From Octopus vulgaris (taxonomy: Eukaryota), in assembly GCA_951406725.2 (NCBI GenBank), contig OX597815.1, positions 17,484,001-17,548,000 of the forward strand: DNA of 64,000 nucleotides, in the 5' to 3' direction. The translations under genes and the position numbers were made by a program. Shown piece after piece: positions 1,331 to 56,046 of this stretch. How positions within the stretch are numbered: the stretch's first letter is position 1; every line of letters starts with the position of its first letter. The notes beneath the pieces are model-generated. The model was not told the origin of the DNA. It ran no database searches and saw nothing but the letters and a program-made list of their open reading frames with translations.

Positions 1331-1565
1331 GTTATTTCTTTATTGCCCACAGGGGGATAAACAAAGAAGGGACAAACAAGGACAGATAAACGGGTTAAGT
1401 CGATTACATCGACCCCAGTGCGTAACTGGTTCTTAATTCATAGACCCCGAAAGGATGAAAGGCAAAGTCGACCTCGGTGGAATTTGAACTCAGAACGTAA
1501 CGGCAGACGAAATACGGCTATGCATTTCGCCCGGCGTGCTAACGTTTCTGCCAGCTCGCTGCCTT
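1331..1565 (-). mobile_element. SINE A monomer inserted in the Merlin element
   Basis: A-box (TGGCAGAAACG) and B-box (GAGTTCAAATTCC) on minus strand; 15-bp TSD TACAGTTACTACATA at 1316-1330 and 1566-1580. Confidence 0.92.
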
Positions 1566-5892: not shown

Positions 5893-6063
5893 ATATATAC
5901 GACGGGTTTCTTTCAGTTTCCGTCTACCAAATCCACTCACAAGACATTAATCGGCCCGGGGCTATAGTAGAAGACACTTGCCCAAGATGCCACGCAGTGG
6001 GACTGAACCCGGAGCCATGTGGTTGGTAAACAAGCTACTTACCACACAGCCACTCCTGCGCCT
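5893..6063 (-). mobile_element. SINE B 5' half
   Basis: Reverse complement of SINE B head up to the internal microsatellite. Confidence 0.88.
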
Positions 6064-6193: not shown

Positions 6194-6471
6194 GGATCTT
6201 TTCGGTTTGAACGGCAGTTTTTAACATAATTTCTAGGTAACGTCTATTGAGGTGAAAACATTCTGTGCCGTATGAATATGTCCCTCGTTTAAGAAACAGA
6301 TTGGATTTATTTACATTTGTGAAGAAAAAAAGATACCTTTCCCCCCACCCCTAACCCTAACTAACCCTAAAACAGATTGAAATGCAATAGATCGATACTA
6401 GGGTCATAATTATGGGTGACAATTTCAAATGACACCGCTAGAAAAAACTGCCGTTCAAACCGAAACGATCC
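6194..6471. mobile_element. Merlin-type MITE family D, internally deleted
   Basis: TIR GGATCTTTTCGGTTTGAACGGCAG; perfect 8-bp TSD GAAAATTT (6186-6193, 6472-6479); sits inside a decayed SINE A. Confidence 0.9.
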
Positions 6472-7010
6472 GAAAATTTGAACTCAAACCAGAAAGAACT
6501 GTAACTAAATACAGCAAAGTATTTTATCGAGCATTCTAATGATTCAACCAATCTACTACCCTTAAAGGATCGATATGTTATGTATATTTACTGATATAAG
6601 TTAACGAATATATCAATCTGATACTGCGTTTGATTCTAATTTCTTGTCACTTCTACGCTAGACAAGGATGCGTCACTCGTCTACGTTAATTGTAACTTAT
6701 TAAATATGCAATATGTCCAGCCACGTTACTTTATTGCCTTCGTTAGCTTGTTTACATCAGCTAAATCACGGCTTTAGGAACTTTGCGATAAGCACTTGGA
6801 AAATATTCTAGAAATACATTTTGATTACGAAAGCTTAAACGGCTTATAAAGCTGTTAATGTAATTTAAGAGGATATATGGAAAAGTATGGTAAACACAAG
6901 ACACAGATCAAACGTGTGTGTGTAAATACATATATAACTTTTATCCCGCAATGCCTGTTGCTTGCATCCAGCAATCCCTCATTCCACATGTGCTCTCTCA
7001 TTTCGATATC

Positions 7011-8117
7011 TATTTATTTACTACCCACAAGGGGGCTAAACACAGAGGAGACAAACAAGGACAGACACACGGATTAAGTCGATTACATCGACCCCAGTGC
7101 ATAACTGGTACTTAATTTATCGACCCCGAAAGGATGAAAGGCAAAGTCGACCTCGGCGGAATTTGAACTCAGAACGTAACGGCAGACGAAATACCTATTT
7201 CTTTACTACCCATAAGGGGCTAAACACAGAGGGGACAAACAAGGACAGACACACGGATTAAGTCGATTACATCGACCCCAGTGCGTAACTGGTACTTTAT
7301 TTATCGACCCCGAAAGGATGAAAGGCAAAGTCGATCTCGGCGGAATTTTCGACTCAGAACGTAACGGCAGACGAAATACCTATTTCTTTACTACCCACAA
7401 GGGGCTAAACACAGAGGGAACAAACAAGGACACACACGGATTAAGTCGATTACATCGATCCCAGTGCGTAACCCGAAAGGATGAATGGCAAAGTCGACCT
7501 CGGCGGAATTTGAACTCAGAACGTAACGGCAGACGAAATACCTATTTCTTTACTACCCACAAGGGGCTAAACACAGAGGGGACAAACAAGGACAGACACA
7601 CGGATTAAGTCGATTACATCGACCCCAGTGCGTAGCTGGTACTTAATTTATCGACCCCGAAATGATGAAAGGCAAAGTCGACCTCGGCGGAATTTGAACT
7701 CAGAACGTAACGGCAGACGAAATACCTATTTCTTTACTACCCACAAGGGGCTAAACACAGAGGGGACAAACAAGGACAGACACACGGATTAAGTCGATTA
7801 CATCGACCTCAGTGCGTAACTGGTACTTAATTTATCGACCCCGAAAGGATGAAAGGCATAGTCGACCTCGGCGGAATTTGAACTCAGAACGTAACAGCAG
7901 ACGAAATACCTATTTCTTTACTACCCACAAGGGGCTAAACACAGAGGGGACAAACAAGGACAGACACACGGATTAAGTCGATTACATCGACCTCAGTGCG
8001 TAACTGGTACTTAATTTATCGACCCCGAAAGGATGAAAGGCATAGTCGACCTCGGCGGAATTTGAACTCAGAACGTAACGGCAGACTAAATACGGCTACG
8101 CATTTTGCCCGGCGTAT
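7011..8117 (-). mobile_element. SINE A hexamer
   Basis: Units start at 7011, 7196, 7381, 7543, 7727, 7911 (about 184 bp, one internally deleted); 17-bp TSD TCTCTCATTTCGATATC at 6994-7010 and 8118-8134. Confidence 0.95.
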
Positions 8118-9244
8118 TCTCTCATTTCGATATCATCCACGCTTCTCCATCCACCATGTTCCTCTCACTTCGACTACTTTTGTTGAAGGTCTTATGACCG
8201 AACCGATTTCTTTCAATTCAGTTTTACTGATATCTGTTATATCAATTGTCTGTTTATCTGTTCAATATCGTCTTTACAAATGAAGTAACTGTCTCCTGTC
8301 GTATCCTTTTTGTTGTCTTGAAACACCTCAGTTATCATATATAGTTTTTTCGTTTTGTTTTCGATCTGTGTCTAATAATTTTAACCTTGGCAATTGTATT
8401 GATTTGATTCAGTTCTATGCGAATATTCGCAGGAGTTTATCAAACTCGAATAACATACTTGATCTATGATCCCATATTGTAATCACATGTTTGTGTATGT
8501 ATTTGTGTATATCTATACTCTAATAGAGAAAGCTACTTATTAATTAGCTATGTAACAATTACTAAAAGTACTAAAAGAAAGGAATTATTAAAGGGTTGAC
8601 TGTCTGGAAATATCTTTTATAAATTCATGTTCGTAGAAATTTCCTATAATTTCGATTTCTCAAGTTTCTTGAATTTTTTTAACTCCAATTTCTCGCAAAT
8701 TTAAATATTCATTGCATTCACTGCGGAGCATTCCATCCTCATTTGTAATCTCCCACTTTCTCTTTTAAGTTTTCATTCACTATTTGGAAAACCGACAGAT
8801 TATTCTATTAATGTATACATAATTTATTATTTATTGCATGGAAAGTTTCAAAATACCCGTATAATTTTTGAACGCGTGGTAGCTGTGAGAAGAGTCTAGA
8901 AAGCTGGTTAATTACTATTAGAAGACGAGGAGAAAGAAAAGTTACCGACAAGTACTTGAAGCTTGCACCTCATTTACGGTTTCCAAACACTCTGTAGCAC
9001 TAAACCAACAATATATACACAAGCAAGTCGCACGAGCGACTTCAACAGTGACGCACTCGCGCACACACACATAGATGCACATACACACAAATGAAAGGCA
9101 ATGAATGTGCGTGTGGGGGCTGCTGTTCACAGACAAAGCTTCGTGCTGCATTACTTTTGCGAAGTTTTGTCAGTGAGCAGATCGCGGTTCCAAAGCGAAG
9201 AAAATATTTTGCCACAAATGAAATTTTAATGTTGAAGTGAAACT

Positions 9245-13711: not shown

Positions 13712-13927
13712 GCGAAAACTTTGAAGTCACAACCACTGTGAAATTCATAGCATTTTTGAAACACGTCTAGTGAATCCTTTGTTGCTTATTGTCATCTGGA
13801 TCTGTGAACTTTACTATAAAGTGCAACACATAGACGCACACTCACACAACTCATGTGTATATAATTGTGTGTATCAATATATATATATATATATATAGAA
13901 GATTCTAAGTGTGTGTGAGTATATACA

Positions 13928-14157
13928 TGGCGTGCTGGCAGAAACGTTAGCACGCCGGGTGAAATGCGTAGCCGTATTTCGTCTGCCGTTACGTTCTGAG
14001 TTCAAATTCCGCCGAGGTCGACTTTGCCTTTCATCCTTTCGGGGGGCGATAAATTAAGTACCAGTTACGCACTGGGGTCGATCTAATCAACTTAATCCGT
14101 TTGTCTCTCCTTGTTTGTCCCCTCTGTGTTTAGCCCCTTGTGGGTAGTAAAGAAATA
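13928..14157 (+). mobile_element. SINE A monomer
   Basis: Head to tail match with family A. Confidence 0.92.
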
Positions 14158-18500: not shown

Positions 18501-18736
18501 GGATCTTTTCACTTTGACCGGCAGTAATTGTATTCACCTCAATAGACGTCATCGATTGGCTGAAATTGCCGAAATACGAGAAATTTAACAACAACATAGC
18601 TTACAAACCACAGAATTTTCTCAAGAACGCCAAGAGAAAAAGATGTTTTATGTGACATATTCTACCAGTAGACGAAGTTTAAAAGTGTTTAGTTACAAAG
18701 AAATTATTTTTTAAATCTGCCGGTCAAAGTGAAAAG
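18501..18736. mobile_element. MITE family D variant
   Basis: TIR GGATCTTTTCACTTTGACCGGCAG ... CTGCCGGTCAAAGTGAAAAG; interior homologous to family D. Confidence 0.8.
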
Positions 18737-19007: not shown

Positions 19008-19315
19008 CCTGTCTACTATAGGCACAAGGCCTGAAATTGTGGGGGAAGGGGACTAATCGATTACATCGACTCCAGTGGTTTAAAATATATATTTCTTTAC
19101 TACCCACAAGGGGCTAAACACATAGGGGACAAACAAGGACAGACAAATGGATTACGTCGACCCCAGTGCGTAACTGGTACTTAATTTATCGACCCCGAAA
19201 GGATGAAAGGTAAAGTCGACCTCGGCGGAATTTGAACTCAGAACGTAGCGGTGTGCAAAATACTGCTAAGCATTTCATCCAGCGTGCTAACGATTCTGCC
19301 AGCTCGCCGACATAT
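19008..19315 (-). mobile_element. Composite SINE A (alternative-tail copy with a replaced middle)
   Basis: 16-bp TSD GAAGAACAAGTGATAT at 18992-19007 and 19316-19331. Confidence 0.88.
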
Positions 19316-20779
19316 GAAGAACAAGTGATATATGGTAACATACGCAAAAAGTACGGCCATAGAGAGGAGAATTACAAAATTCAAATCGGTAATAAGGGCA
19401 AGATAACCAGTAGAGCTGTATATAGAAAATGTAAAAGGAATTGTGATAGACCGAGAGAGGTACGGGAAACTGAGCGATTTGTTCGGAAACGGTATAGACT
19501 CATTGGGAGCAGAGGTGGAGTTTGATGAATTACCGCCTGTTGTGGAGTACAAAGATTTAGAACCATTTATGAACTTCTAAAAGTAAGACGTACAAATTGA
19601 ATAGACTATAAATATGATACTAAAAGGGAAAAAAAAAGGAAAAAAGAGAAAGAAAAATGATAAAAACTGTTAAAATATCTAAATGGTACTGCTTGAGATT
19701 CGGGTTCAATGTAGTCATTTCATCACCATTAATTTTATTCATCCTTCATTAGTTCGTTTTATGTTTTATTTTGTCCCCACTGTGGTGTTCTGTCTGTCCT
19801 TGTGCTGTCCCCTCTGTGGCATGGCCTGCGTGCCAAATAAAAGAGATAGTACAGTGTAGTGTATGTAGTTGCATTTGTGAAGGCAGTCGTAGAAGTTGTT
19901 GAGGAGAGATATAAGTTACTTACGTATTTGATCCTGATTTAGAATTTGCAGTGTTATAACACTGTTACAGTGTAGTTTACATCCAAACCCAAAGATATAA
20001 TAAATACCTTAACTCTAAACTACACACATTTTTATATCAGACGATAGACCTCTTGTACATTGATTACTTATATTGCGACACAGCTGAAAGAACCCATCTC
20101 TTTCTTCTTTTATGAATACAATTTCTTTCGCATGTGATAAAACTTTTATTCGTTAACAGACCTCCACTGAAAATCCTCATATGAATAGAAAAACGGTGTA
20201 TTGCATAACTTTGAAAATTCTTTCTTTCAAAAGGATGCGGTTCTGATTAATCAAATTTCAAATAAAATTCAGATGTCACGAGTATCATCTGGAAAATTTC
20301 AATTCTCATTGTTTTGAACGATTTATGAAACATTATACTGAGATATCTCTTTCCAAACATGTATTTTAAATGTTTTGATATATGATTGTGAAACACTCGG
20401 GCGGTTTTTAGCAAAATCTTCTGAGATAAATTTTTGCACATACCTTGGAGAAGCTTTGTGAGGTCGTTCTGGATATAGTTGATGTTAAAAGAAAAGAAAT
20501 TCTCTTACGATATAGCATACTGAGGTGGACAGGCCATGTAATTCATGCGGGAGAATTCTAATGCTTCTCCTCTATAGAGAATTATTAGCATTTCTCAAAA
20601 GATTCGGATTTTCAATTCACTTTCGATACCGAGGTCGATTTTTGCCTTTCCTTCATAAGGCAAAGTCGACCTCGGTGACATTGAACCCGGGACAGAAAGA
20701 CAAAAAAAAAATGCCACCAAGCAATTTGTCAGGCGTGCTAATGTTTCAGCCAGCTTACTCGCATTCACATAATAATAAT

Positions 20780-21005
20780 AATAATAATAATGGTTTCAAA
20801 TTTTGCTGCAAGGGCAACCATTTTGGGAGAGGGGATTAGTCCATTACATTGACCCTAGAGTTTCACTGGTACTTAATTTATCAACCCCGAAAGGATGACA
20901 AGCAATGTCCACCGCGGCATAATTTGAACCCAGGAAACGAAGACGGATGAAATACTGCTAAGCATTTCGCCCGGCGTGCTAACGATTTGTGAGCTCGCCG
21001 CCTTA
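20780..21005 (-). mobile_element. SINE A, alternative (TAA)n-tailed variant, diverged
   Basis: Family A head and body with different 3' tail. Confidence 0.75.
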
Positions 21006-22726: not shown

Positions 22727-23325
22727 AATAATAATAATAATCCTTTCTATTATAGGCACAAGGCTTGAAATTTAGGGGAGGGAGATAGTCAATTACATCG
22801 ATCCCAGTGCGTAACCGGTACTTAATTCATCGATTCCCGAAAGGATGAAAGGCAAAGTCGACCTTGGTGGAATTTGAACTCAGAACGTAGCGGCAGACGA
22901 AATGCCTATTTCTTTATTACCCACAAGGGGGTTAACCACAGAGAGGACAAACAAGGACAGACAAACGGATTAAGTCGATTATATCGACCCCAGTGCATAA
23001 CTGGTACTTATTTAATCGACCCCCGAAAGGATGAAAGGCAAAGTCGACCTCGGTGGAATTTGAACTCAGAACGTAGCGGCAGACGAAATACCTATTTCTT
23101 TATTACCCACAAGGGGCTAAACACAGAGAGGACAAACAAGGACAGACAAACGGATTAAGTCGATTATATCGACCCCAGTGCGTAACTGGTACTTATTTAA
23201 TCGACCCCGAAAGGATGAAAAGCAAAGTCGACCTCGGCGGAATTTGAACTTTGAACGTAACCGCAGACGAAATACCGTTAAGCATTCCGCCCGGCGTGCT
23301 AACGTTTCTGCCATCTCGCCGCCTT
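22727..23325 (-). mobile_element. SINE A hetero-trimer
   Basis: Standard-tail units at 22907 and 23093 plus a terminal unit with the alternative (TAA)n tail; same junction as other arrays. Confidence 0.9.
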
Positions 23326-26234: not shown

Positions 26235-27250
26235 ATAAATCTCAGAGCGAGTTATAAACAGTAGCAGCAACACATTGTGACGTATATCTGCCATTTGAAT
26301 ATTCAAATGGGAAATATACGTATATATATATATATATATATATAAACCGTTCCATATTTTCATCACTTTATCTCATCATCTGAGAGAGTCCCATTATAAA
26401 AACAAATTGAATTTTTGCATGGGAGGGGGGGGAAACACTCTCATCAATTGATTCATGACGCTTAAGTCATTTGAGCTGTCTGCACCTCGTACATCTAAAA
26501 AAAAAAAAACAGAAACAAAATCACTCTCATTTTATGGAGGAGAAGAAAATAGCATTAAAATCAGTATATTTGTTTTTATCGTTTTCTTATTTTTCAGGTA
26601 GCAATAAATAAATATCTTTATTCGCATTTGTTGTCGGTTTTATATTTTAGTACCTTCTTTGAAGGTTTAAAGAAGCCAGAAAAACGTTGTAGATTTTGTC
26701 TTACTTGATGTTGTTTTATCCGGATTTATCTGCAATATCTCATTTCCGCATAGTACTGTTAAATTTAGTGCTGATATAAACAGAAAATGTTATGTTGAAG
26801 TAAAAGTAACTGCTGTTGTAATGTTGGTATTATTATTAGATTTTAGCTCAGTTTTTTCTCACTCGCCAGCTTCTAAAATATTCTATCAACTTCACCATTT
26901 CTCTTTATTTCTTTGTAATTATTGGATTGTCTCTAAATTTTTTTATTACATTAACTTACTTTTATTCTCTTAATTCTGTTTGTTAAGACATTAATTAATT
27001 TTTTGAAAACTTTGTCACAAATATATAATTTTAATTCATTTATATATTTTTAATGACATTTTCATAATTACAATTACCTTTTTCAAACTTAACTACGTTT
27101 AAAATTATGAGTTGTAACAAACAGATCATGTCATTTTTTCTGAGGAGATTCGAGTCCTAAAATCTTCATGCATATTATGTTGTATCCTGAACAATCTAAT
27201 ATCGCCCCACGATCCAGTGAAGAATGATCTACGTTAGTCATGAGCAACTT

Positions 27251-27481
27251 ATTTCTTTATTTTCCACAAGGAGCTAAACACAGAGGGGACAAACAAGGAC
27301 AGACATAGGTATTAAGTCGATTACATCGATCCCAGTGCGTAACTGGTACTTATTTAATCGACCCCAAAAGGATGAAAGGCAAAGTCGACCTCGGCGGAAT
27401 TTGAACTCAGAACGTAACGGTAGACGAAATACTGCTAAGCATTTCGCCCGGCGTGCTAACCACTCTGCCAGTTCGCCGCCT
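27251..27481 (-). mobile_element. SINE A monomer
   Basis: 17-bp TSD TTAGTCATGAGCAACTT at 27234-27250 and 27482-27498. Confidence 0.93.
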
Positions 27482-31631: not shown

Positions 31632-31998
31632 GCATCTTTTCGGTTTGAACGGCAGTTTTTTCTAGCGGTGTCATATGAAATTGTCACCCATAATTATGAC
31701 CCTAGTATCGATCTATTGCATTCCAATTTGTTTTAAGGTTAGGGGTGGGGTGAAGGTATCTTTTTTTCTTCGCAAATGTAAATAAACCCAATCTGTTTCT
31801 TAAACGAGGGACATATTCATACGGCACAGAATGTTTTTTTACCTCAATAGACGTGAGTGATTGGTTGAAATTGCAGAAATTGAAGATAAAAACAACAAAT
31901 ATCGGACAAACTATAGAATTTTCTCAATAAAGCCAAGAGAAAAAAGATGTTTTATAAACACATTCTACCAGTATACGAAGTTTAAAATTTTTTAGTTA
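31632..31998. mobile_element. MITE family D, one end lost, abutting SINE A head (31999-32119, minus)
   Basis: Left TIR present; right TIR replaced by SINE A sequence. Confidence 0.85.
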
Positions 31999-37149: not shown

Positions 37150-37383
37150 AGGCGGCGAGCTGGCAGAAACGTTAGCACGCCGGGCGAAATGCTTAGCGAT
37201 ATTTCGTCTGCCGCTACGTTCTGAGTTCAAATTCCGCCGAGGTCGATTTTGCCTTTCATCCTTTCGGGGTCGATAAATAAAGTACCAGTTACGTACTGGA
37301 GTCGATGTAATCGACTTAATCCGTTCGTCTGTCCTTGTTTGTCCCCTCTGTGCTTAGCCCCTTGTGGGTAGTAAAGAAATAGA
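37150..37383 (+). mobile_element. SINE A monomer
   Basis: 14-bp TSD TATCTCCCTTTGTA at 37136-37149 and 37384-37397. Confidence 0.93.
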
Positions 37384-38588
37384 TATCTCCCTTTGTATTA
37401 CAAAAGCATAACCTTCTAAATGTGACGTGATGTAACATTAAAGAGTACGTATGCGTTATGTGTTTGTGCATGTATGCATATATGCACAATATGCTTTCTT
37501 CGCTTATATTGCATATGTTAACTTCGACTGGACAACTAATTTCTGTTAGTGTACAGCTTTTCTTTTCTCTTAATGTCTCTTGCCGATTATTCATATGTAT
37601 TATACAAAGCTTTTGACTGGAACGTTTCTTCAGTAATTTATTGGTATCAAAGGTGTGTGCGCCCTCTACGTCGTTGTAACCTTTTTTTTTTGTTGAACTT
37701 CGAAACTATTCCCCCGCTGTGCGGTGTTTCGGTCATTAGATCATAACTCAAAGGTTGATATTACCATGTTGACAGTTTCAGACAGCTGCTTATGATGTGA
37801 GTCACATTTTCCATATTAATTTCGTAGAGACTGTATCGATTGTCAAATCTAGGTGTTTTCTTATTTCCTATTCCTTGATGTCTCATATTTATGTTTTGCT
37901 TCGAGAGAAAGAAGCATATATATATATATACATGAATGTATGTGTACATTTATATATGTGTATATATGTATGTATTTTCTTATTTAGCATACATACATTC
38001 TTAGACAAAATATGACGAGATACAAAAATGTAAATTTTATGTTTGTATGGGAAATTCATACAATTAACTAATTGAAATATTTCCCTGGTAAGATCAGAAC
38101 TCTAAAAAGTATGTAATTGTTATGGACTGGCGTTATATTCCCTTGGTATTAATTTACTTCATTATTTATTGTTCTTTTACCAAATCACAAGGATTCATAA
38201 GGATGGTATTTATCTCCATGGAAACCACACATCTGGCAAAGCAGCATGCCAAAGACAAAGCTTCTATAAAATATTTCAGCTCTAGTAAGATACTGACTGT
38301 CTGCAAAGATCAAGTTAAAAAAACCCATTAATGTATTACATATCTGGGATGGCGCTTACACTACATGCACAATCTTGCTCAACCGCATGCAAAAGCAAAG
38401 TCCATCTGTCTGATTGGCAAATAGTCGCTCTAACACCTGCAACACACTACAACTTCTACTCAACGAACGCAGGGCTGCTTCTTTAGGTCATTTCTTCTTC
38501 TTCTTCTTCTTTCTCTTCTTCTATTGTTCTAACATATCCAAGACATCGTAGCCCCGTGTTTTTTTTTTTTTTTTTTTAACACTATATC

Positions 38589-39372
38589 TATTTCTTTACT
38601 ACCCACAAAGGGCTAAACACAGAGAGGACAAACAAGGACAGACAAACGGATCTAGTCGATTATATCGACCCCAGTGCGTAACTGGTACTTAATTTATCGA
38701 CCCCGAAAGGATGAAAGGCAAAGTCGACCTCGGCGGAATTTGAACTCAGAACGTAACGACAGACGAAACACCTATTTCTTTACTACCCACAAGGCGCTAA
38801 ACACAGAGAGGACAAACAAGGACAGACAAACGGATCTAGTCGATTACATCGACCCCAGTGCGTAACTGGTACTTAATTTATCGACCCCGAAAGGATGAAA
38901 GGCAAAGTCGACCTCGGCGGAATTGGAACTCAGAACGTAACGACAGACGAAACACCTATTTCTTTACTACCCACAAGGGGCTAAACACAGAGAGGACAAA
39001 CAAGGACAGACAAACGGATCTAGTCGATTACATCGACCCCAGTGCGTAACTGGTACTTAATTTATCGACCTCGAAAGGATGAAAGGCAAAGTCGACCTCG
39101 GCGGAATTTGAACTCAGAACGTAACGGCAGACGAAATACCTATTTCTTTACTACCCACAAGGGGCTAAACACAGAGAGGACAAACAAGGACAGACAAAGG
39201 GATTAAGTCGATTATATCGACCCCAGTGCGTAACTGGTTCTTAATTCATCGACCCCGAAAGGATGAAAGGCAAAGTCGACCTCCACAGAATTTGAACTCA
39301 GAACATAACGGCAGACGAAATACGGCTACGCATTTCGCCCGGCGTGCAAACGTTTCTGCCAGCTCGCCGCCT
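38589..39372 (-). mobile_element. SINE A tetramer
   Basis: Units at 38589, 38773, 38957, 39141; exact 184-bp period. Confidence 0.95.
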
Positions 39373-45053: not shown

Positions 45054-45950
45054 TGTTGGGTGTGTTTAATTCAGATTTCATTAACTGTTTAACTATTTTT
45101 TGTTATTTGTACACGTTGCACAGAATCACGTGTTTCAATCAAAAAGGCTATCAAGAGAATTATTTGGAAAGTGGAAGGGAAGTTGTGCCACTTCCTTGAT
45201 TCGTTGTTTGCATCAAAATCAATAAAATTCCATATTTCTCAAGAGATAACAATTTTAATAAAATTTAAACCCTGAAAATTTACCAATTTGTTTTATTTAG
45301 ATATTTGCATTGACAAGATATTCACAAGGGAATGCAATATAATATCAGAATTTCTTGATATTTTTCGATGAAATATAGTTTCGTAACCTCAGAATAACAT
45401 TTGTCCGAAATTGATTTTTAAATTGCTGAAAGATATTTCAACAAATTACTTCCTGCCAATGACTTATCACTGAACTGTTCTCCCTCATTAGGACCTGGGA
45501 ACTAATAAGCTATTAATCTTATTAGTTCCAAGAAAATTAAATTTGATCCAATAGACCTTATTAGACTACGCATGCTATTTTATTCCTCAGGTGCTAAAGA
45601 TATGACGAAGCTAGATTGCTCTTTTCCGAACTTCTGTCTAGATATTTATTAAATTCACTTGAAGTGACAGACACTTTGTGCTAGAAACTACGCTCATCTG
45701 GTAACTAATCTTAAAAAGCGTTCCAATAGTGATCATCCCGTGTTATAGCCAGACATTCTGACAAGAACTGTATTTAAAATGTATCTTTTCTTATTTATAA
45801 GACAAGACTTGATTTATTGATAATTTCTCTCTTTTTTTTTCTGTCAGATCGACTCAAAGACGTAGAAGCTCCAACGTTGGCTCTGGTCAGTAAGAGTTCG
45901 CTCGGAGTTAAACGTTTAGAGAATCGAAGCTGTCTATATTTTAAACCAAA

Positions 45951-46172
45951 GGCGGCAAGCTGGCAGAAACGTTAACACGCCGGGCGAAATGCGTAGCTGT
46001 ATTTCGTCTGCCGTTACGTTCTGAGTTCAAATTCCGCCGAGGTCGACTTTGCCTTTCATCCTTTCGGGGTCGATAAATTAAGTACCAGTTACGCACTGGG
46101 GTCGACGTAATCCATTTGTCTGTCCTTGTTTGTCCCCTATGTGTTTAGCCCCTTGTGGGTAGTAAAGAAATA
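45951..46172 (+). mobile_element. SINE A monomer with private deletion
   Basis: 16-bp TSD TATATTTTAAACCAAA at 45935-45950 and 46173-46188. Confidence 0.93.
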
Positions 46173-46705
46173 TATATTTTAAACCAAAATATACTATTTC
46201 GCTTACTTTAATGTTATTGTTTAAGCTGATGCTATTGTTTGAGCAATTCTGATTAAAGAGTTCCAACTGTAACACCCCAGACATTGTATATTCACCGTTT
46301 TCTTTTAAAAGTGTAAAGTTGTTTGAAGGAGAATATTACCATTAATATCTTGTCGGCTCCTCGGCGATTCGAATCCAACTGTTTTCTGTTTCTATGGCAA
46401 CATTTTCCATAATATATTGCAACCAGATTTTGTTAATTAGTAGTAAAGCAACCAATAATAAAATATGCTCTTTGCCGGATAATTGTGCTTAAATACCATG
46501 ACACTAATGAATTAACGTACATGGTGTTATGTAAGCACAGCTGCACAAAATTAACAACTTCAATAACTTTGACTGAAACCATTATTATAATTACTGCCTA
46601 ACAAAACTGCCGAAATTATTCTTGTAGAAACAATAAAGCTACAATATAAGGCCTTAGTAAAGTTGTAGAAGAATTCATTAACTTTACTTATCGTGAGGAG
46701 TAAAT

Positions 46706-49239: not shown

Positions 49240-49453
49240 TACGACGGGCTTCTTTCAGTTTCCGTCTACCAAATCCACTCACAAGGCTTTGGTCGCTTCT
49301 TTCAGTTACTGTCTACCAAATCCACTCACAAGGCTATGGTTGGCCCGAGGCTATAGTAAAAGACACTTGCCCAAGGTGCCACGCAGCGGGACTGAACCCG
49401 GAACCATGTGGCTCGTAAGCATGCAACTTACCACACAGCCACTCCTACGCCTA
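48665..49453 (-). mobile_element. SINE B full copy (48981-49453) plus adjacent 3' half (48665-48980)
   Basis: Family B matches; short internal duplication near 49295-49335. Confidence 0.9.
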
Positions 49454-51600: not shown

Positions 51601-51769
51601 GAAGTTATGGGGAACTGACGACAACTAGTATAAATACGTGAAGACGGATGAAATGCCGCTAAGCATTTTGTCCAGCATGCTAACGATTCTGCCTGCTTAC
51701 CACCTTCATATAATAATAATAATAATGGTAATAATAATAACAATAATAATAATGATGATGATGATAATG

Positions 51770-51985
51770 ATTCTTTCTACTATAGGCACTTAGCCTGAAA
51801 TTTGGACGGAGGAGTTAAGTCGATTAGATCGACCCCAGTACTCAACTGGTACTTGATTTATCGAACCCGAAAAGATGAAAGGCTAAGTCGACCTCGGCAG
51901 AATTTGAACTCAGAACGTAGAGACGGACGAAACGTCGCTAAGCATTTTGCCCAACATGCTAACGATTTAGCCTGCTCGCCGTCTT
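51770..51985 (-). mobile_element. SINE A alternative-tail variant
   Basis: Family A body with (TAA)n-associated tail; further fragments at about 51640-51705 and 52350-52435. Confidence 0.8.
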
Positions 51986-55284: not shown

Positions 55285-56046
55285 TGTTTCTTTATTACCC
55301 ACAAGGGGCTAAACACAGAAGGGACAAACAAGAACAGACAAACGGATTAAGTCGATTACATCGTAACTGGTACTTAATTTATCGACCCCGAAAGGACGAA
55401 AGGCAAAGTCGACCTCGGTGGAATTTGAACTCAGAACGTAGCAGCAGGCAAAATACCTATTTCTTTACTGTCCACAAGGGGCTAAACACAGAAAGGACAA
55501 ACAAGGACAGACAAACGGATTAAGTCGATTACATCGACTCCAGTGCGTAACTGGTACTTAATTTATTGACCTCGAAAGGATGAAAGGCAAAGTCGACCTC
55601 GGCGGAATTTGAACTCCGAACGAAGCGGCAGACGAAATACCTATTTCTTTACTACCCACAAAGGTCTGAGGACAAAGACAGACAAACGGATTAAGTCGAT
55701 TATATCGACCCCAGTGCGTAACTGGTACTTAATTTAATTGACCCCGAAAGGATGAAAGACAAAGTCGACTTCGGCAGAATTTGAACTCAGAATGTAGCGG
55801 CTGGCGAAATACCTATTTCTTTACTGCCCATAAGGGGTTAAACACAGAAAGGACAAACAAGGACAGACAAAGGGATTAAGTCGATTATATCGACCCTAGT
55901 GCGTAACTGGTACTTAATTTATAGACCCCGAAAGGATGAAAGGCAAAGTCGACCTCGGCGGAATTTGAACTCAGAACGTAACGGCAGACGAAATACCGCT
56001 AAGCATTTCGCCCGGCGTGCTAACGATTCTGCCAGCTCACCGCCTT
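55285..56046 (-). mobile_element. SINE A tetramer, more diverged
   Basis: Units at 55285, 55458, 55642, 55814. Confidence 0.93.

What the first reader, a model, noticed from the sequence alone, without database searches (positions are those of the whole stretch)
7176..7210. The multimer junction is self-complementary and maps to a hairpin loop of the SINE head
Seen: junction in SINE sense is GAAATAG|GTATTTC (GAAATA pairs with TATTTC). In monomers the restart base lies just 3' of the loop of a 10-bp hairpin GGCGAAATGC-ttagcg-GTATTTCGTC in the anticodon-arm position. The 3' end GAAATA therefore replaces the 5' arm of that hairpin. Inference: RNA cleavage at the loop followed by pairing-guided ligation or template switch fixes the breakpoint.
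Basis: partly seen in the sequence, partly recalled or inferred. Interest (0 to 1): 0.7.

Follow-up and report, generated by a model that had tools for sequence, protein, structure and literature searches.

The report
SINE that inserts into own head
Chains of a short jumping repeat all restart at one base in the repeat's own head, and that spot matches the DNA motif at which the repeat lands elsewhere in the genome, so the chains likely begin when one copy inserts into another rather than by cutting and rejoining of RNA.

Summary
The junction is real: 13 of 22 tails of this tRNA-like SINE run straight into GG-TATTTC, the first bases 3' of a 4-nt loop in a covarying 13-bp head hairpin. Tail/arm complementarity exceeds chance (9 of 1000 shuffles). 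New result: ordinary insertions have the same geometry. Their targets read purine-purine-TAT (32 of 35 positions, 7 TSDs), and a matrix trained only on those flanks ranks the restart site first in 5 of 8 copies tested, but not in heads with the C-G variant, which were never seen at a junction. The junction therefore looks like a normal target-primed 3' insertion junction whose target is the SINE's own head; arrays then likely spread as whole multimers and by unequal exchange. RNA cleavage is not needed: no ribozyme hit, no TSEN-type register, no headless copies. It is not excluded: no RNA ends could be read, and target preference alone predicts about 1% self-insertions, far below what is seen. 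Head-truncated SINE multimers under one TSD are known (blood clam, squamates); a breakpoint fixed by self-targeting was not found in ten paper searches.

The parts
7188..7201 (-). The junction: SINE tail end GAAATA (7201-7196) joined to GG-TATTTC (7195-7188), positions 49-56 of the head
7181..7210 (-). Predicted junction hairpin: GAAAU/AUUUC around AGGU plus GGUAG/CUGCC (-9.0 kcal/mol, z -3.0 on the 35-nt piece; z -0.1 on a 66-nt piece)
7011..8117 (-). Six-unit array: 5'-truncated head (no A-box, C-G variant) plus six units of about 184 bp; five junctions after tails at 7911, 7727, 7543, 7381, 7196
8118..8134 (-). Left copy of the 17-bp target site duplication GATATCGAAATGAGAGA of the six-unit array
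6994..7010 (-). Right copy of the same 17-bp duplication, directly after the last tail; begins purine-purine-TAT
8082..8111 (-). Head hairpin of the six-unit array (G-C closing-pair variant: C-G, not G-G, before TATTT)
55985..56014 (-). Head hairpin, U.G closing-pair variant: 13-bp stem, loop TAGC, followed by GG-TATTTC at 55997-55990, the site where units restart and the best match to the target motif
55285..56045 (-). Four-unit array, full head, units 7-13% apart, no TSD found
38589..39372 (-). Four-unit array, full head (C-G variant); unit 1 of another lineage than units 2-4; partial TSD beginning GATATAGT
22740..23324 (-). Three-unit array ending in the tail of the sister family B; unit 2 is a recombinant of units 3 (5' part) and 1 (3' part)
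1333..1564 (-). Monomer; target AA-TAT, about 17-bp TSD
13927..14157 (+). Monomer (C-G head); target AG-TAT, short TSD in a TA-rich flank; reference for read laying
27250..27481 (-). Monomer with the clearest A-box (TGGCAGAGTGG); target AG-TTG, the one exception to TAT; 16-17-bp TSD
37150..37381 (+). Monomer; genomic target GG-TATCTC, 7 of 8 identical to the head restart site; 16-bp TSD
45950..46172 (+). Monomer with a 9-10-bp deletion; target TA-TAT, 15-bp TSD; apparent donor of the chimera at 19090-19310
19090..19310 (-). B-family copy whose middle was overwritten with the body, tail and 14 flank bases of the 45950 monomer

Best explanation
The restart site GG-TATTTC in the SINE head matches the motif at which this SINE inserts elsewhere, so the multimer junction is likely an ordinary target-primed insertion junction in which the target was another copy's head, and arrays then likely spread as whole multimers and by unequal exchange. 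Steps. (1, shown) Ordinary insertions end at GAAATA and are followed by a 15-18-bp TSD that begins purine-purine-TAT. (2, shown) The head carries the best match to that motif at position 49, in the same register as the junction; the C-G head variant lacks it and was not seen at any junction. (3, inferred) A partner LINE protein nicks the bottom strand there, in a genomic copy or in freshly made cDNA, and copies a SINE RNA from its tail. (4, inferred, by analogy with R2Bm) The cDNA is homologous to the head upstream of the nick, so its end joins by strand invasion; this leaves one head, no inner TSD and one more unit. (5, partly shown) The unit consensus has no run of four T, so Pol III would read through; the 7011-8117 array, with a truncated promoter-less head and one perfect TSD, fits insertion as a whole multimer. 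(6, shown as pattern) Adjacent units are recombinant or share private changes, as unequal exchange gives. Half of the self-complementarity (ATA/TAT) is common to ordinary insertions; the other half (GAA/TTC and GGUAG/CUGCC) is specific to the head and may raise the preference for it (inferred).
For: Target motif: TAT at +3..+5 in 6 of 7 TSD-flanked insertions (window frequency 0.04); purines at 13 of 14 positions +1/+2 (p 0.0009); RRTAT 32 of 35 against 13.7 in random sites, 0 of 20000 draws as high. A matrix built from those 7 flanks alone ranks the restart site first of about 224 positions in 5 of 8 copies tested (5.7-6.5 bits, next site 3.4-3.6); it is outside the top four in the two C-G heads and third in one diverged B head. 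13 of 13 junctions start GG although 5 of 10 A-type loci have C at that head position; no joint to the C position is among the 15 listed of 202. Contigs show A tails joined in register to diverged or B-type arms: GGCATTTCATCC (12 of 12 bases as in the B head at 51705), AGTATTTCG, and a class of 7, 2 and 30 contigs. All 10 A-type loci keep head sequence 5' of the restart base. Precedents read as passages: cDNA joining to homologous upstream target in R2Bm (PMC6895275); priming on 4 matching bases in L1 (PMC3649969, abstract). Local homology-driven copying is seen: the 19090 chimera carries the body and 14 flank bases of the 45950 copy; recombinant unit 2 in the 23k array.
Against: Frequency: about 6 heads carry a high-scoring site against 403-925 such sites in the window, so motif alone predicts about 1% self-insertions, whereas 4 of 10 loci are arrays; inheritance, duplication or homing must supply the rest and none is measured. 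The motif rests on 7 sites and was defined after looking. TTC at +6..+8 is not enriched in ordinary targets (8 of 21 against 5.75; 3818 of 20000), so the extended complementarity and the exact coincidence with the loop edge are not explained. No nested full head behind an inner TSD was seen (0 of 13 junctions; none among 15 listed joints), so step 4 must be nearly obligatory. Arrays at 7k and 39k have C-G heads but GG junctions, so they cannot have grown in place from their present head without head replacement. My one in-window example of a junction on a B body failed: that unit is A-type up to about +110. The partner LINE was not found. No genome was available.
Confidence: 0.5

Rival explanations
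1. One reading: SINE RNA is cut at the 3' edge of the head loop (an anticodon-loop-type nuclease or self-cleavage); the tail then pairs with the freed arm and is ligated (circle or concatemer), or the reverse transcriptase jumps there. The RRTAT target bias would then be a consequence of priming on the GGUAU that follows the tail.
For: Restart lies exactly at the loop's 3' edge of a covarying hairpin. Tail-arm pairing is predicted only once the 5' arm is gone (0.14-0.74 against 0.000). It explains the extended complementarity and the star-like relation of most units in the 7k array. Relaxed ARAGORN treats this loop as an anticodon loop in 4 of 13 heads. End-to-end jumping is known for R2 RT (cited in PMC2912911 and PMC6895275, passages).
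Against: 0 of 10 loci start at the restart base and 4 of 4 arrays end in a head, which a circle alone cannot give. Where the two TSD copies differ at +1/+2 (4 of 14), the base next to the tail is C, T, A, A and never G, against priming on GGUAU. No ribozyme family at E<=10. TSEN-type register missed by 6 and 7 nt. C-G heads have an equally good or better hairpin yet were not seen at junctions.
Confidence: 0.2
2. Single founder: the junction arose once, by any accident, and every array inherits it through read-through retrotransposition, gene conversion and unequal exchange. Hairpin and complementarity would then matter at most for the founding event.
For: 13 of 13 junctions are GG regardless of the array's own head. 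No four-T run in the unit consensus. Recombinant units and a 27-kb local conversion are seen. It accounts for the high frequency without homing.
Against: Tails joined directly to B-type or AG-variant arms in contigs, with family-specific bases 1-12 nt from the joint. Array units do not form one supported clade apart from monomers (most forks unresolved, so weak). It leaves the match to the target motif as a one-off coincidence (1 of about 224 positions).
Confidence: 0.2
3. Pairing-guided template switch on intact RNA: while the reverse transcriptase opens the head hairpin, a tail (same or another RNA) pairs with the 3' arm, and the enzyme moves to that tail at the loop edge without any cut.
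For: Gives one head plus n units under one TSD; uses the full 11-bp tail/arm complementarity; needs no new nuclease.
Against: The arm is already in an RNA:cDNA hybrid when the enzyme reaches the loop (inference); tail-arm pairing is 0.000 in the folded monomer; C-G heads should then give CG junctions, and none was seen; the match to the DNA target motif is unexplained.
Confidence: 0.1

Closest known systems
TSD-(SINE)n-TSD tandem SINE arrays of the blood clam Scapharca broughtonii (PMC11481361; section 15 read whole, discussion passage)
   Same: Mollusc tRNA-derived SINE multimers of several units under one TSD, first unit with a full head, later units cut at one fixed place in the head.
   Different: There inner units also lack part of the tail, as in an internal duplication; here every unit has the complete tail, so each junction is a true 3' end. 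That paper suggests unequal recombination and reports no target motif or hairpin at the breakpoint in the parts read.
SINE-derived satellites (sSat1-3) of squamates (PMC10702118; parts 1, 3 and 4 of 5 read)
   Same: Tandem units shorter than the SINE, with a longer terminal unit reaching one SINE end; uniform units across loci; copy number varies.
   Different: Those are up to hundreds of units, lean subtelomeric and are ascribed to duplication; these are dispersed 3-6-mers with insertion TSDs and a breakpoint equal to the element's own target motif.
Head-to-tail multimers of full-length SINEs (B2, Dip, Ves; PMC8466645, passages)
   Same: Multimers common (40% of B2 and 49% of Dip copies there); insertion of one SINE into another is one proposed origin.
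   Different: Those are full-length units landing in A-rich tails; here the landing site is in the head and the inner heads are lost.
R2Bm integration into 28S rDNA (PMC6895275, passages)
   Same: Works like it in the proposed step 4: cDNA that ends in target-homologous sequence joins the upstream target by invasion or recombination.
   Different: R2 is an autonomous, site-specific LINE with an HDV-like ribozyme; this is a non-coding element with a loose motif whose homologous target is itself.
Metazoan non-LTR retrozymes (PMC7761336, passages)
   Different: Retrozymes carry a hammerhead ribozyme in each unit; none was found here, and these arrays end in a tRNA-like head outside the unit.

Membership tests
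tRNA-derived SINE (SINEBase definition, PMC3531059) | Short (<1 kb) interspersed repeat with many copies | tested here: met
   232-bp monomer; 10 A-type loci in 64 kb; 14,490-175,498 contigs laid per contig run
tRNA-derived SINE (SINEBase definition, PMC3531059) | Head at least 60% identical to a tRNA over 60 nt, with Pol III A and B boxes | tested here: inconclusive
   A-box-like TGGCAGAGTGG and B-box-like GTTCAAATTCC are in the sequence, 64 nt apart (box consensus recalled); default ARAGORN and Rfam find no tRNA; relaxed ARAGORN gives one recurring tRNA-like call in 4 of 13 heads among many spurious ones
tRNA-derived SINE (SINEBase definition, PMC3531059) | Target site duplications of variable length from LINE-type insertion | tested here: met
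   TSD at 7 of 8 A-tail loci with unique flanks, mostly 15-18 bp; two are partial
tRNA-derived SINE (SINEBase definition, PMC3531059) | 3' end shared with a partner LINE | not testable with these tools
   No genome; no long non-repetitive ORF in the window; tail pattern gave only short chance matches in other collections
Named octopus SINE (OK/OR1/OR2) or MetaSINE superfamily | Identity to the published consensus or central domain | tested here: inconclusive
   Octopus origin and the family names are recalled, not shown by any search. Short central motifs were absent from searchable supplements of PMC11481361 (8 files) and PMC4824008 (2 files, 1 not searchable); SINEBase supplements not held
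SINE-derived tandem multimers (sSat / TSD-(SINE)n-TSD) | Units are a fixed part of a SINE with one longer terminal unit, under one TSD | tested here: met
   4 of 4 arrays have one head plus units from position 49; one full, one partial and one B-type TSD, one without
SINE-derived tandem multimers (sSat / TSD-(SINE)n-TSD) | Long, homogenised, subtelomeric arrays | tested here: not met
   3-6 units, 1-13% apart, dispersed; chromosome position unknown
Non-LTR retrozyme | Hammerhead or other self-cleaving ribozyme in each unit | tested here: not met
   No Rfam hit at gathering score in 64 kb; no ribozyme family at E<=10 over two arrays and one monomer
Non-LTR retrozyme | Circular RNA of unit length | not testable with these tools
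   Only contigs for the presumed RNA runs
TSEN/RtcB pre-tRNA splicing substrate | Cuts after position 37 and before 38 of a tRNA fold | tested here: not met
   With A-box-anchored numbering (rule recalled) the restart is 6 nt after the 5' site and 7 nt before the 3' site; numbering of this degenerate head is uncertain
TRIM with tRNA-like LTR (Helenus; PMC10886601, passages) | Two LTRs and 4-5-bp TSD | tested here: not met
   No terminal redundancy in monomers; TSD mostly 15-18 bp

The most novel reading that the evidence does not exclude
The SINE RNA is cut at the edge of a selectively kept hairpin loop and closed tail-to-arm into a ribozyme-free circle or concatemer that a LINE enzyme copies several times round, and the junction sequence also steers where the family lands, including back into its own head: a retrozyme-like cycle built on a tRNA head.
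Probability: 0.15. Interest if true: 0.8.

Novelty: new variant of a known kind. Interest (0 to 1): 0.45.

Why it matters
How SINEs turn into tandem arrays and satellites is open; the papers read offer duplication or recombination without a rule for the breakpoint. Here a very abundant SINE gives a testable rule: the breakpoint equals the element's own insertion motif, so the family would seed its own arrays, and a common head variant (C-G) both keeps the hairpin and removes the site, which would be an escape from self-insertion. In practice, 13 of 22 tails in this window sit in multimers, so copy counts and ages from repeat annotation would overcount insertion events. The target motif is also a handle for finding the unknown partner LINE.

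Tried and rejected
Whole-genome analysis: no genome held. Pattern scans of viral, metagenome and prokaryote collections gave 0, 1, 36, 3 and 0 loci; none of the 40 has more than a 24-base match to the SINE. RNA evidence: no RNA holder listed on record and no raw RNA run; presumed RNA runs are contigs and cannot show ends, strand or level; their junction depths were not used. The raw DNA run laid only 11 reads of 12.9 million (one with the junction), so it gave no copy statistics; 187 joints and 884 loose ends were not shown. First pair count used a misregistered structure and is void (redone). Covariation is modest: 91% of cells paired (2 of 500 shuffles), but pairs changed on both sides 3 (161 of 500) and covariation score 22 of 500; related copies inflate these. 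The 23k array as a de novo junction on a B element: rejected, unit 3 is A-type in the central block and its C at +3 is absent from its duplicate. A39k units 3 and 4 share two private changes within the first 14 bases, which fits an inner TSD but equally unequal crossover: not used. Circle-only rolling copy: rejected, all arrays end in a head. Multimer RNA as the template of all insertions: disfavoured, rewritten +1/+2 bases are never G; the 84 matched TSD bases used as contrast are perfect by construction. Tree of 22 unit bodies is mostly unresolved (2 of 19 inner branches starred). Relaxed ARAGORN is mostly noise. Family naming from supplements failed. Ten paper searches found no description of these arrays or of a SINE whose multimer breakpoint is its own target site; the 1994 octopus SINE paper and Repbase are not held, so prior description is not excluded. 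Earlier findings: nothing by place or sequence; eight unrelated notes by words.

Full report
Setting. The window is AT-rich animal-like DNA with microsatellites and no tRNA or Rfam gene. It holds two related short repeats with one head and central block but different tails: family A (232 bp, ending GAAATA) and family B (ending in ATT repeats). From recall this is an octopus SINE; no call shows the organism or a family name. Family A occurs at 10 loci: five monomers, one A/B chimera and four arrays of 3, 4, 4 and 6 units, each with one head at the 5' end. The finding is the last junction of the six-unit array at 7011-8117 (minus strand).

Observation. The junction reads GAAATA GG TATTTC (7201-7188). 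It follows 13 of 22 A-type tails, always with GG, and is the best-supported joint in contigs of three public runs (39, 12, 43 contigs). The arm is the only 6-base complement of the tail in the monomer, and the tail/arm duplex beats 991 of 1000 shuffles; against the first 150 nt as a whole it beats 444 of 500. Three corrections: the boundary is GAAATA|GG, since unique-flank tails are followed by G in only 4 of 9 cases and TSDs supply the next bases; the joined RNA can form 5, not 6, pairs around AGGU, extended by GGUAG/CUGCC; and the head hairpin is up to 13 bp with a 4-nt loop, so the restart is the first base 3' of the loop.

The hairpin. In 16 heads 91% of cells pair (2 of 500 shuffles; slid controls 38-57%). 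The closing pair takes five standard forms (U.G 7, G-C 3, U-A 3, C-G 1, G.U 1); other covariation measures are weaker (161, 18, 225 and 22 of 500). In three runs the share of T on the 5' side (0.35, 0.53, 0.38) equals the share of G plus A on the 3' side (0.36, 0.52, 0.39), as linked alleles would give (depth-weighted contigs, not copy numbers). So the stem is probably kept by selection or inherited from two master types. In intact monomers the tail does not pair with the arm (0.000 in 7 of 7); in headless units it does part of the time (0.14-0.74 in 7).

The new result. Seven A-type insertions have a TSD, mostly 15-18 bp (two partial). Their targets, read from the left copy, are AATATG, GATATC, AGTATA, AGTTGC, GGTATC, GATATA and TATATT. 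TAT stands at +3..+5 in 6 of 7, purines fill 13 of 14 positions at +1/+2, and RRTAT scores 32 of 35 against 13.7 at random sites (0 of 20000). So ordinary 3' junctions read ATA-NN-TAT, the same geometry as the multimer junction. A matrix trained only on these flanks ranks head position 49 first of about 224 positions in 5 of 8 copies tested; in the two heads with the C-G variant the site is outside the top four. No CG junction occurs in the window (0 of 13) or among the 15 listed joints of 202, though 5 of 10 A-type loci have C at that head position. Contigs also show A tails joined in register to B-type or AG-variant arms. TTC at +6..+8 is not enriched in ordinary targets (8 of 21), so only half of the complementarity is general.

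Mechanism. Most likely (0.5): the junction is a target-primed insertion into a SINE head. The nick, the priming and the joining are inferred. Joining by homology is needed to leave one head and no inner TSD; R2Bm gives a precedent for cDNA joining a homologous upstream target (PMC6895275, passages), and L1 for priming on four matching bases (PMC3649969, abstract). Spread is partly visible. The unit consensus has no four-T run (6 of 26 sequences have one). The 7k array has a truncated head without A-box, one perfect 17-bp TSD, and units sharing a variant found in no other copy (5 of 6 by alignment; the sixth carries it beside a 2-bp gap), which fits insertion as a whole multimer. Units 1 and 2 there share two private changes, unit 2 of the 23k array is a 5'/3' recombinant of its neighbours, and the 19090 copy was overwritten from the 45950 copy 27 kb away, flank included, so DNA-level exchange is active.

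Against this reading. Motif alone predicts about 1% self-insertions (about 6 heads against 403-925 sites), far below 4 arrays in 10 loci. The motif rests on 7 sites chosen after looking. The exact fit to the loop edge and the longer complementarity remain unexplained. The unresolved form (inner TSD plus second head) was not seen. Two arrays have C-G heads over GG junctions. My in-window case for a new junction on a B element failed. The partner LINE is unknown.

Rivals. RNA cleavage with pairing-guided ligation or jump (0.2) explains the loop edge and the complementarity, but predicts headless copies (0 of 10), has no ribozyme, misses the TSEN register by 6 and 7 nt under A-box numbering (rule recalled, numbering uncertain), and its account of the target motif predicts G at rewritten +1/+2 positions (0 of 4). 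It is untested at the RNA level because no raw RNA run was listed. A single founder with inheritance (0.2) explains the invariant GG and the frequency but not junctions on B-type arms. A switch on intact RNA (0.1) fits the anatomy but not the missing CG junctions.

Comparison. SINE multimers with a fixed head truncation under one TSD are described in the blood clam (PMC11481361, section 15 and passages) and as SINE-derived satellites in squamates (PMC10702118, parts 1, 3, 4); full-length multimers in rodents and bats (PMC8466645, passages). Two recent octopus repeat papers (PMC13282606 and PMC12988792, passages) do not mention such arrays in the passages returned. PMC4824008, PMC4758252, PMC3531059, PMC2912911 and PMC10886601 were seen as passages only. 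Ten searches found no report of a breakpoint set by the element's own target site; the 1994 octopus SINE paper, Repbase and some supplements could not be seen and may bear on this.

Verdict. A real, non-random feature; a new variant of a known kind. Interest 0.45.

Noticed in passing
window 19090-19310 (-) and 45950-46186 (+): A B-family copy carries the body, a private 9-10-bp deletion, the tail and 14 flank bases of the monomer 27 kb away on the other strand, then returns to its own B tail: local ectopic conversion or homology-joined insertion.
   Followed up: partly
window, head positions 44-49 of all copies, e.g. 13968-13973: Two head types differ at the closing pair (U.G or U-A versus G-C). 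The G-C type keeps the stem but loses the purine-purine-TAT site; it may be an escape from self-insertion.
   Followed up: partly
window 7181-7210 (-): The last 15 bases of the tail resemble the reverse complement of the head arm (11 pairs with a 4x2 internal loop); the tail end may derive from an inverted copy of the arm.
   Followed up: partly
TSDs at 1333, 14157, 37381: The two bases next to the tail differ between the TSD copies in 4 of 14 positions, suggesting a variable nick or bases added or carried over at priming.
   Followed up: partly
window 20657-21003 (-) and 51633-51984 (-): B-family copies form pairs with full heads joined through ATT repeats, a different route to tandem copies from family A.
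   Followed up: no
window 38560-38589 (-): The right TSD of the 39k array breaks off after 8 bases into an A run, probably a later insertion.
   Followed up: no
every junction and head arm, e.g. 7189-7193 (-): TATTT in the arm resembles the weak Pol III terminators described for Dip and Ves SINEs (PMC8466645, passages); leaky stops at junctions could set multimer RNA length.
   Followed up: no
window 5907-6060, about 6200-6320, 18510-18590 (-), 31830-31990 (-), 49248-49340: Other dispersed repeat fragments recur, some directly beside SINE copies; not classified.
   Followed up: no
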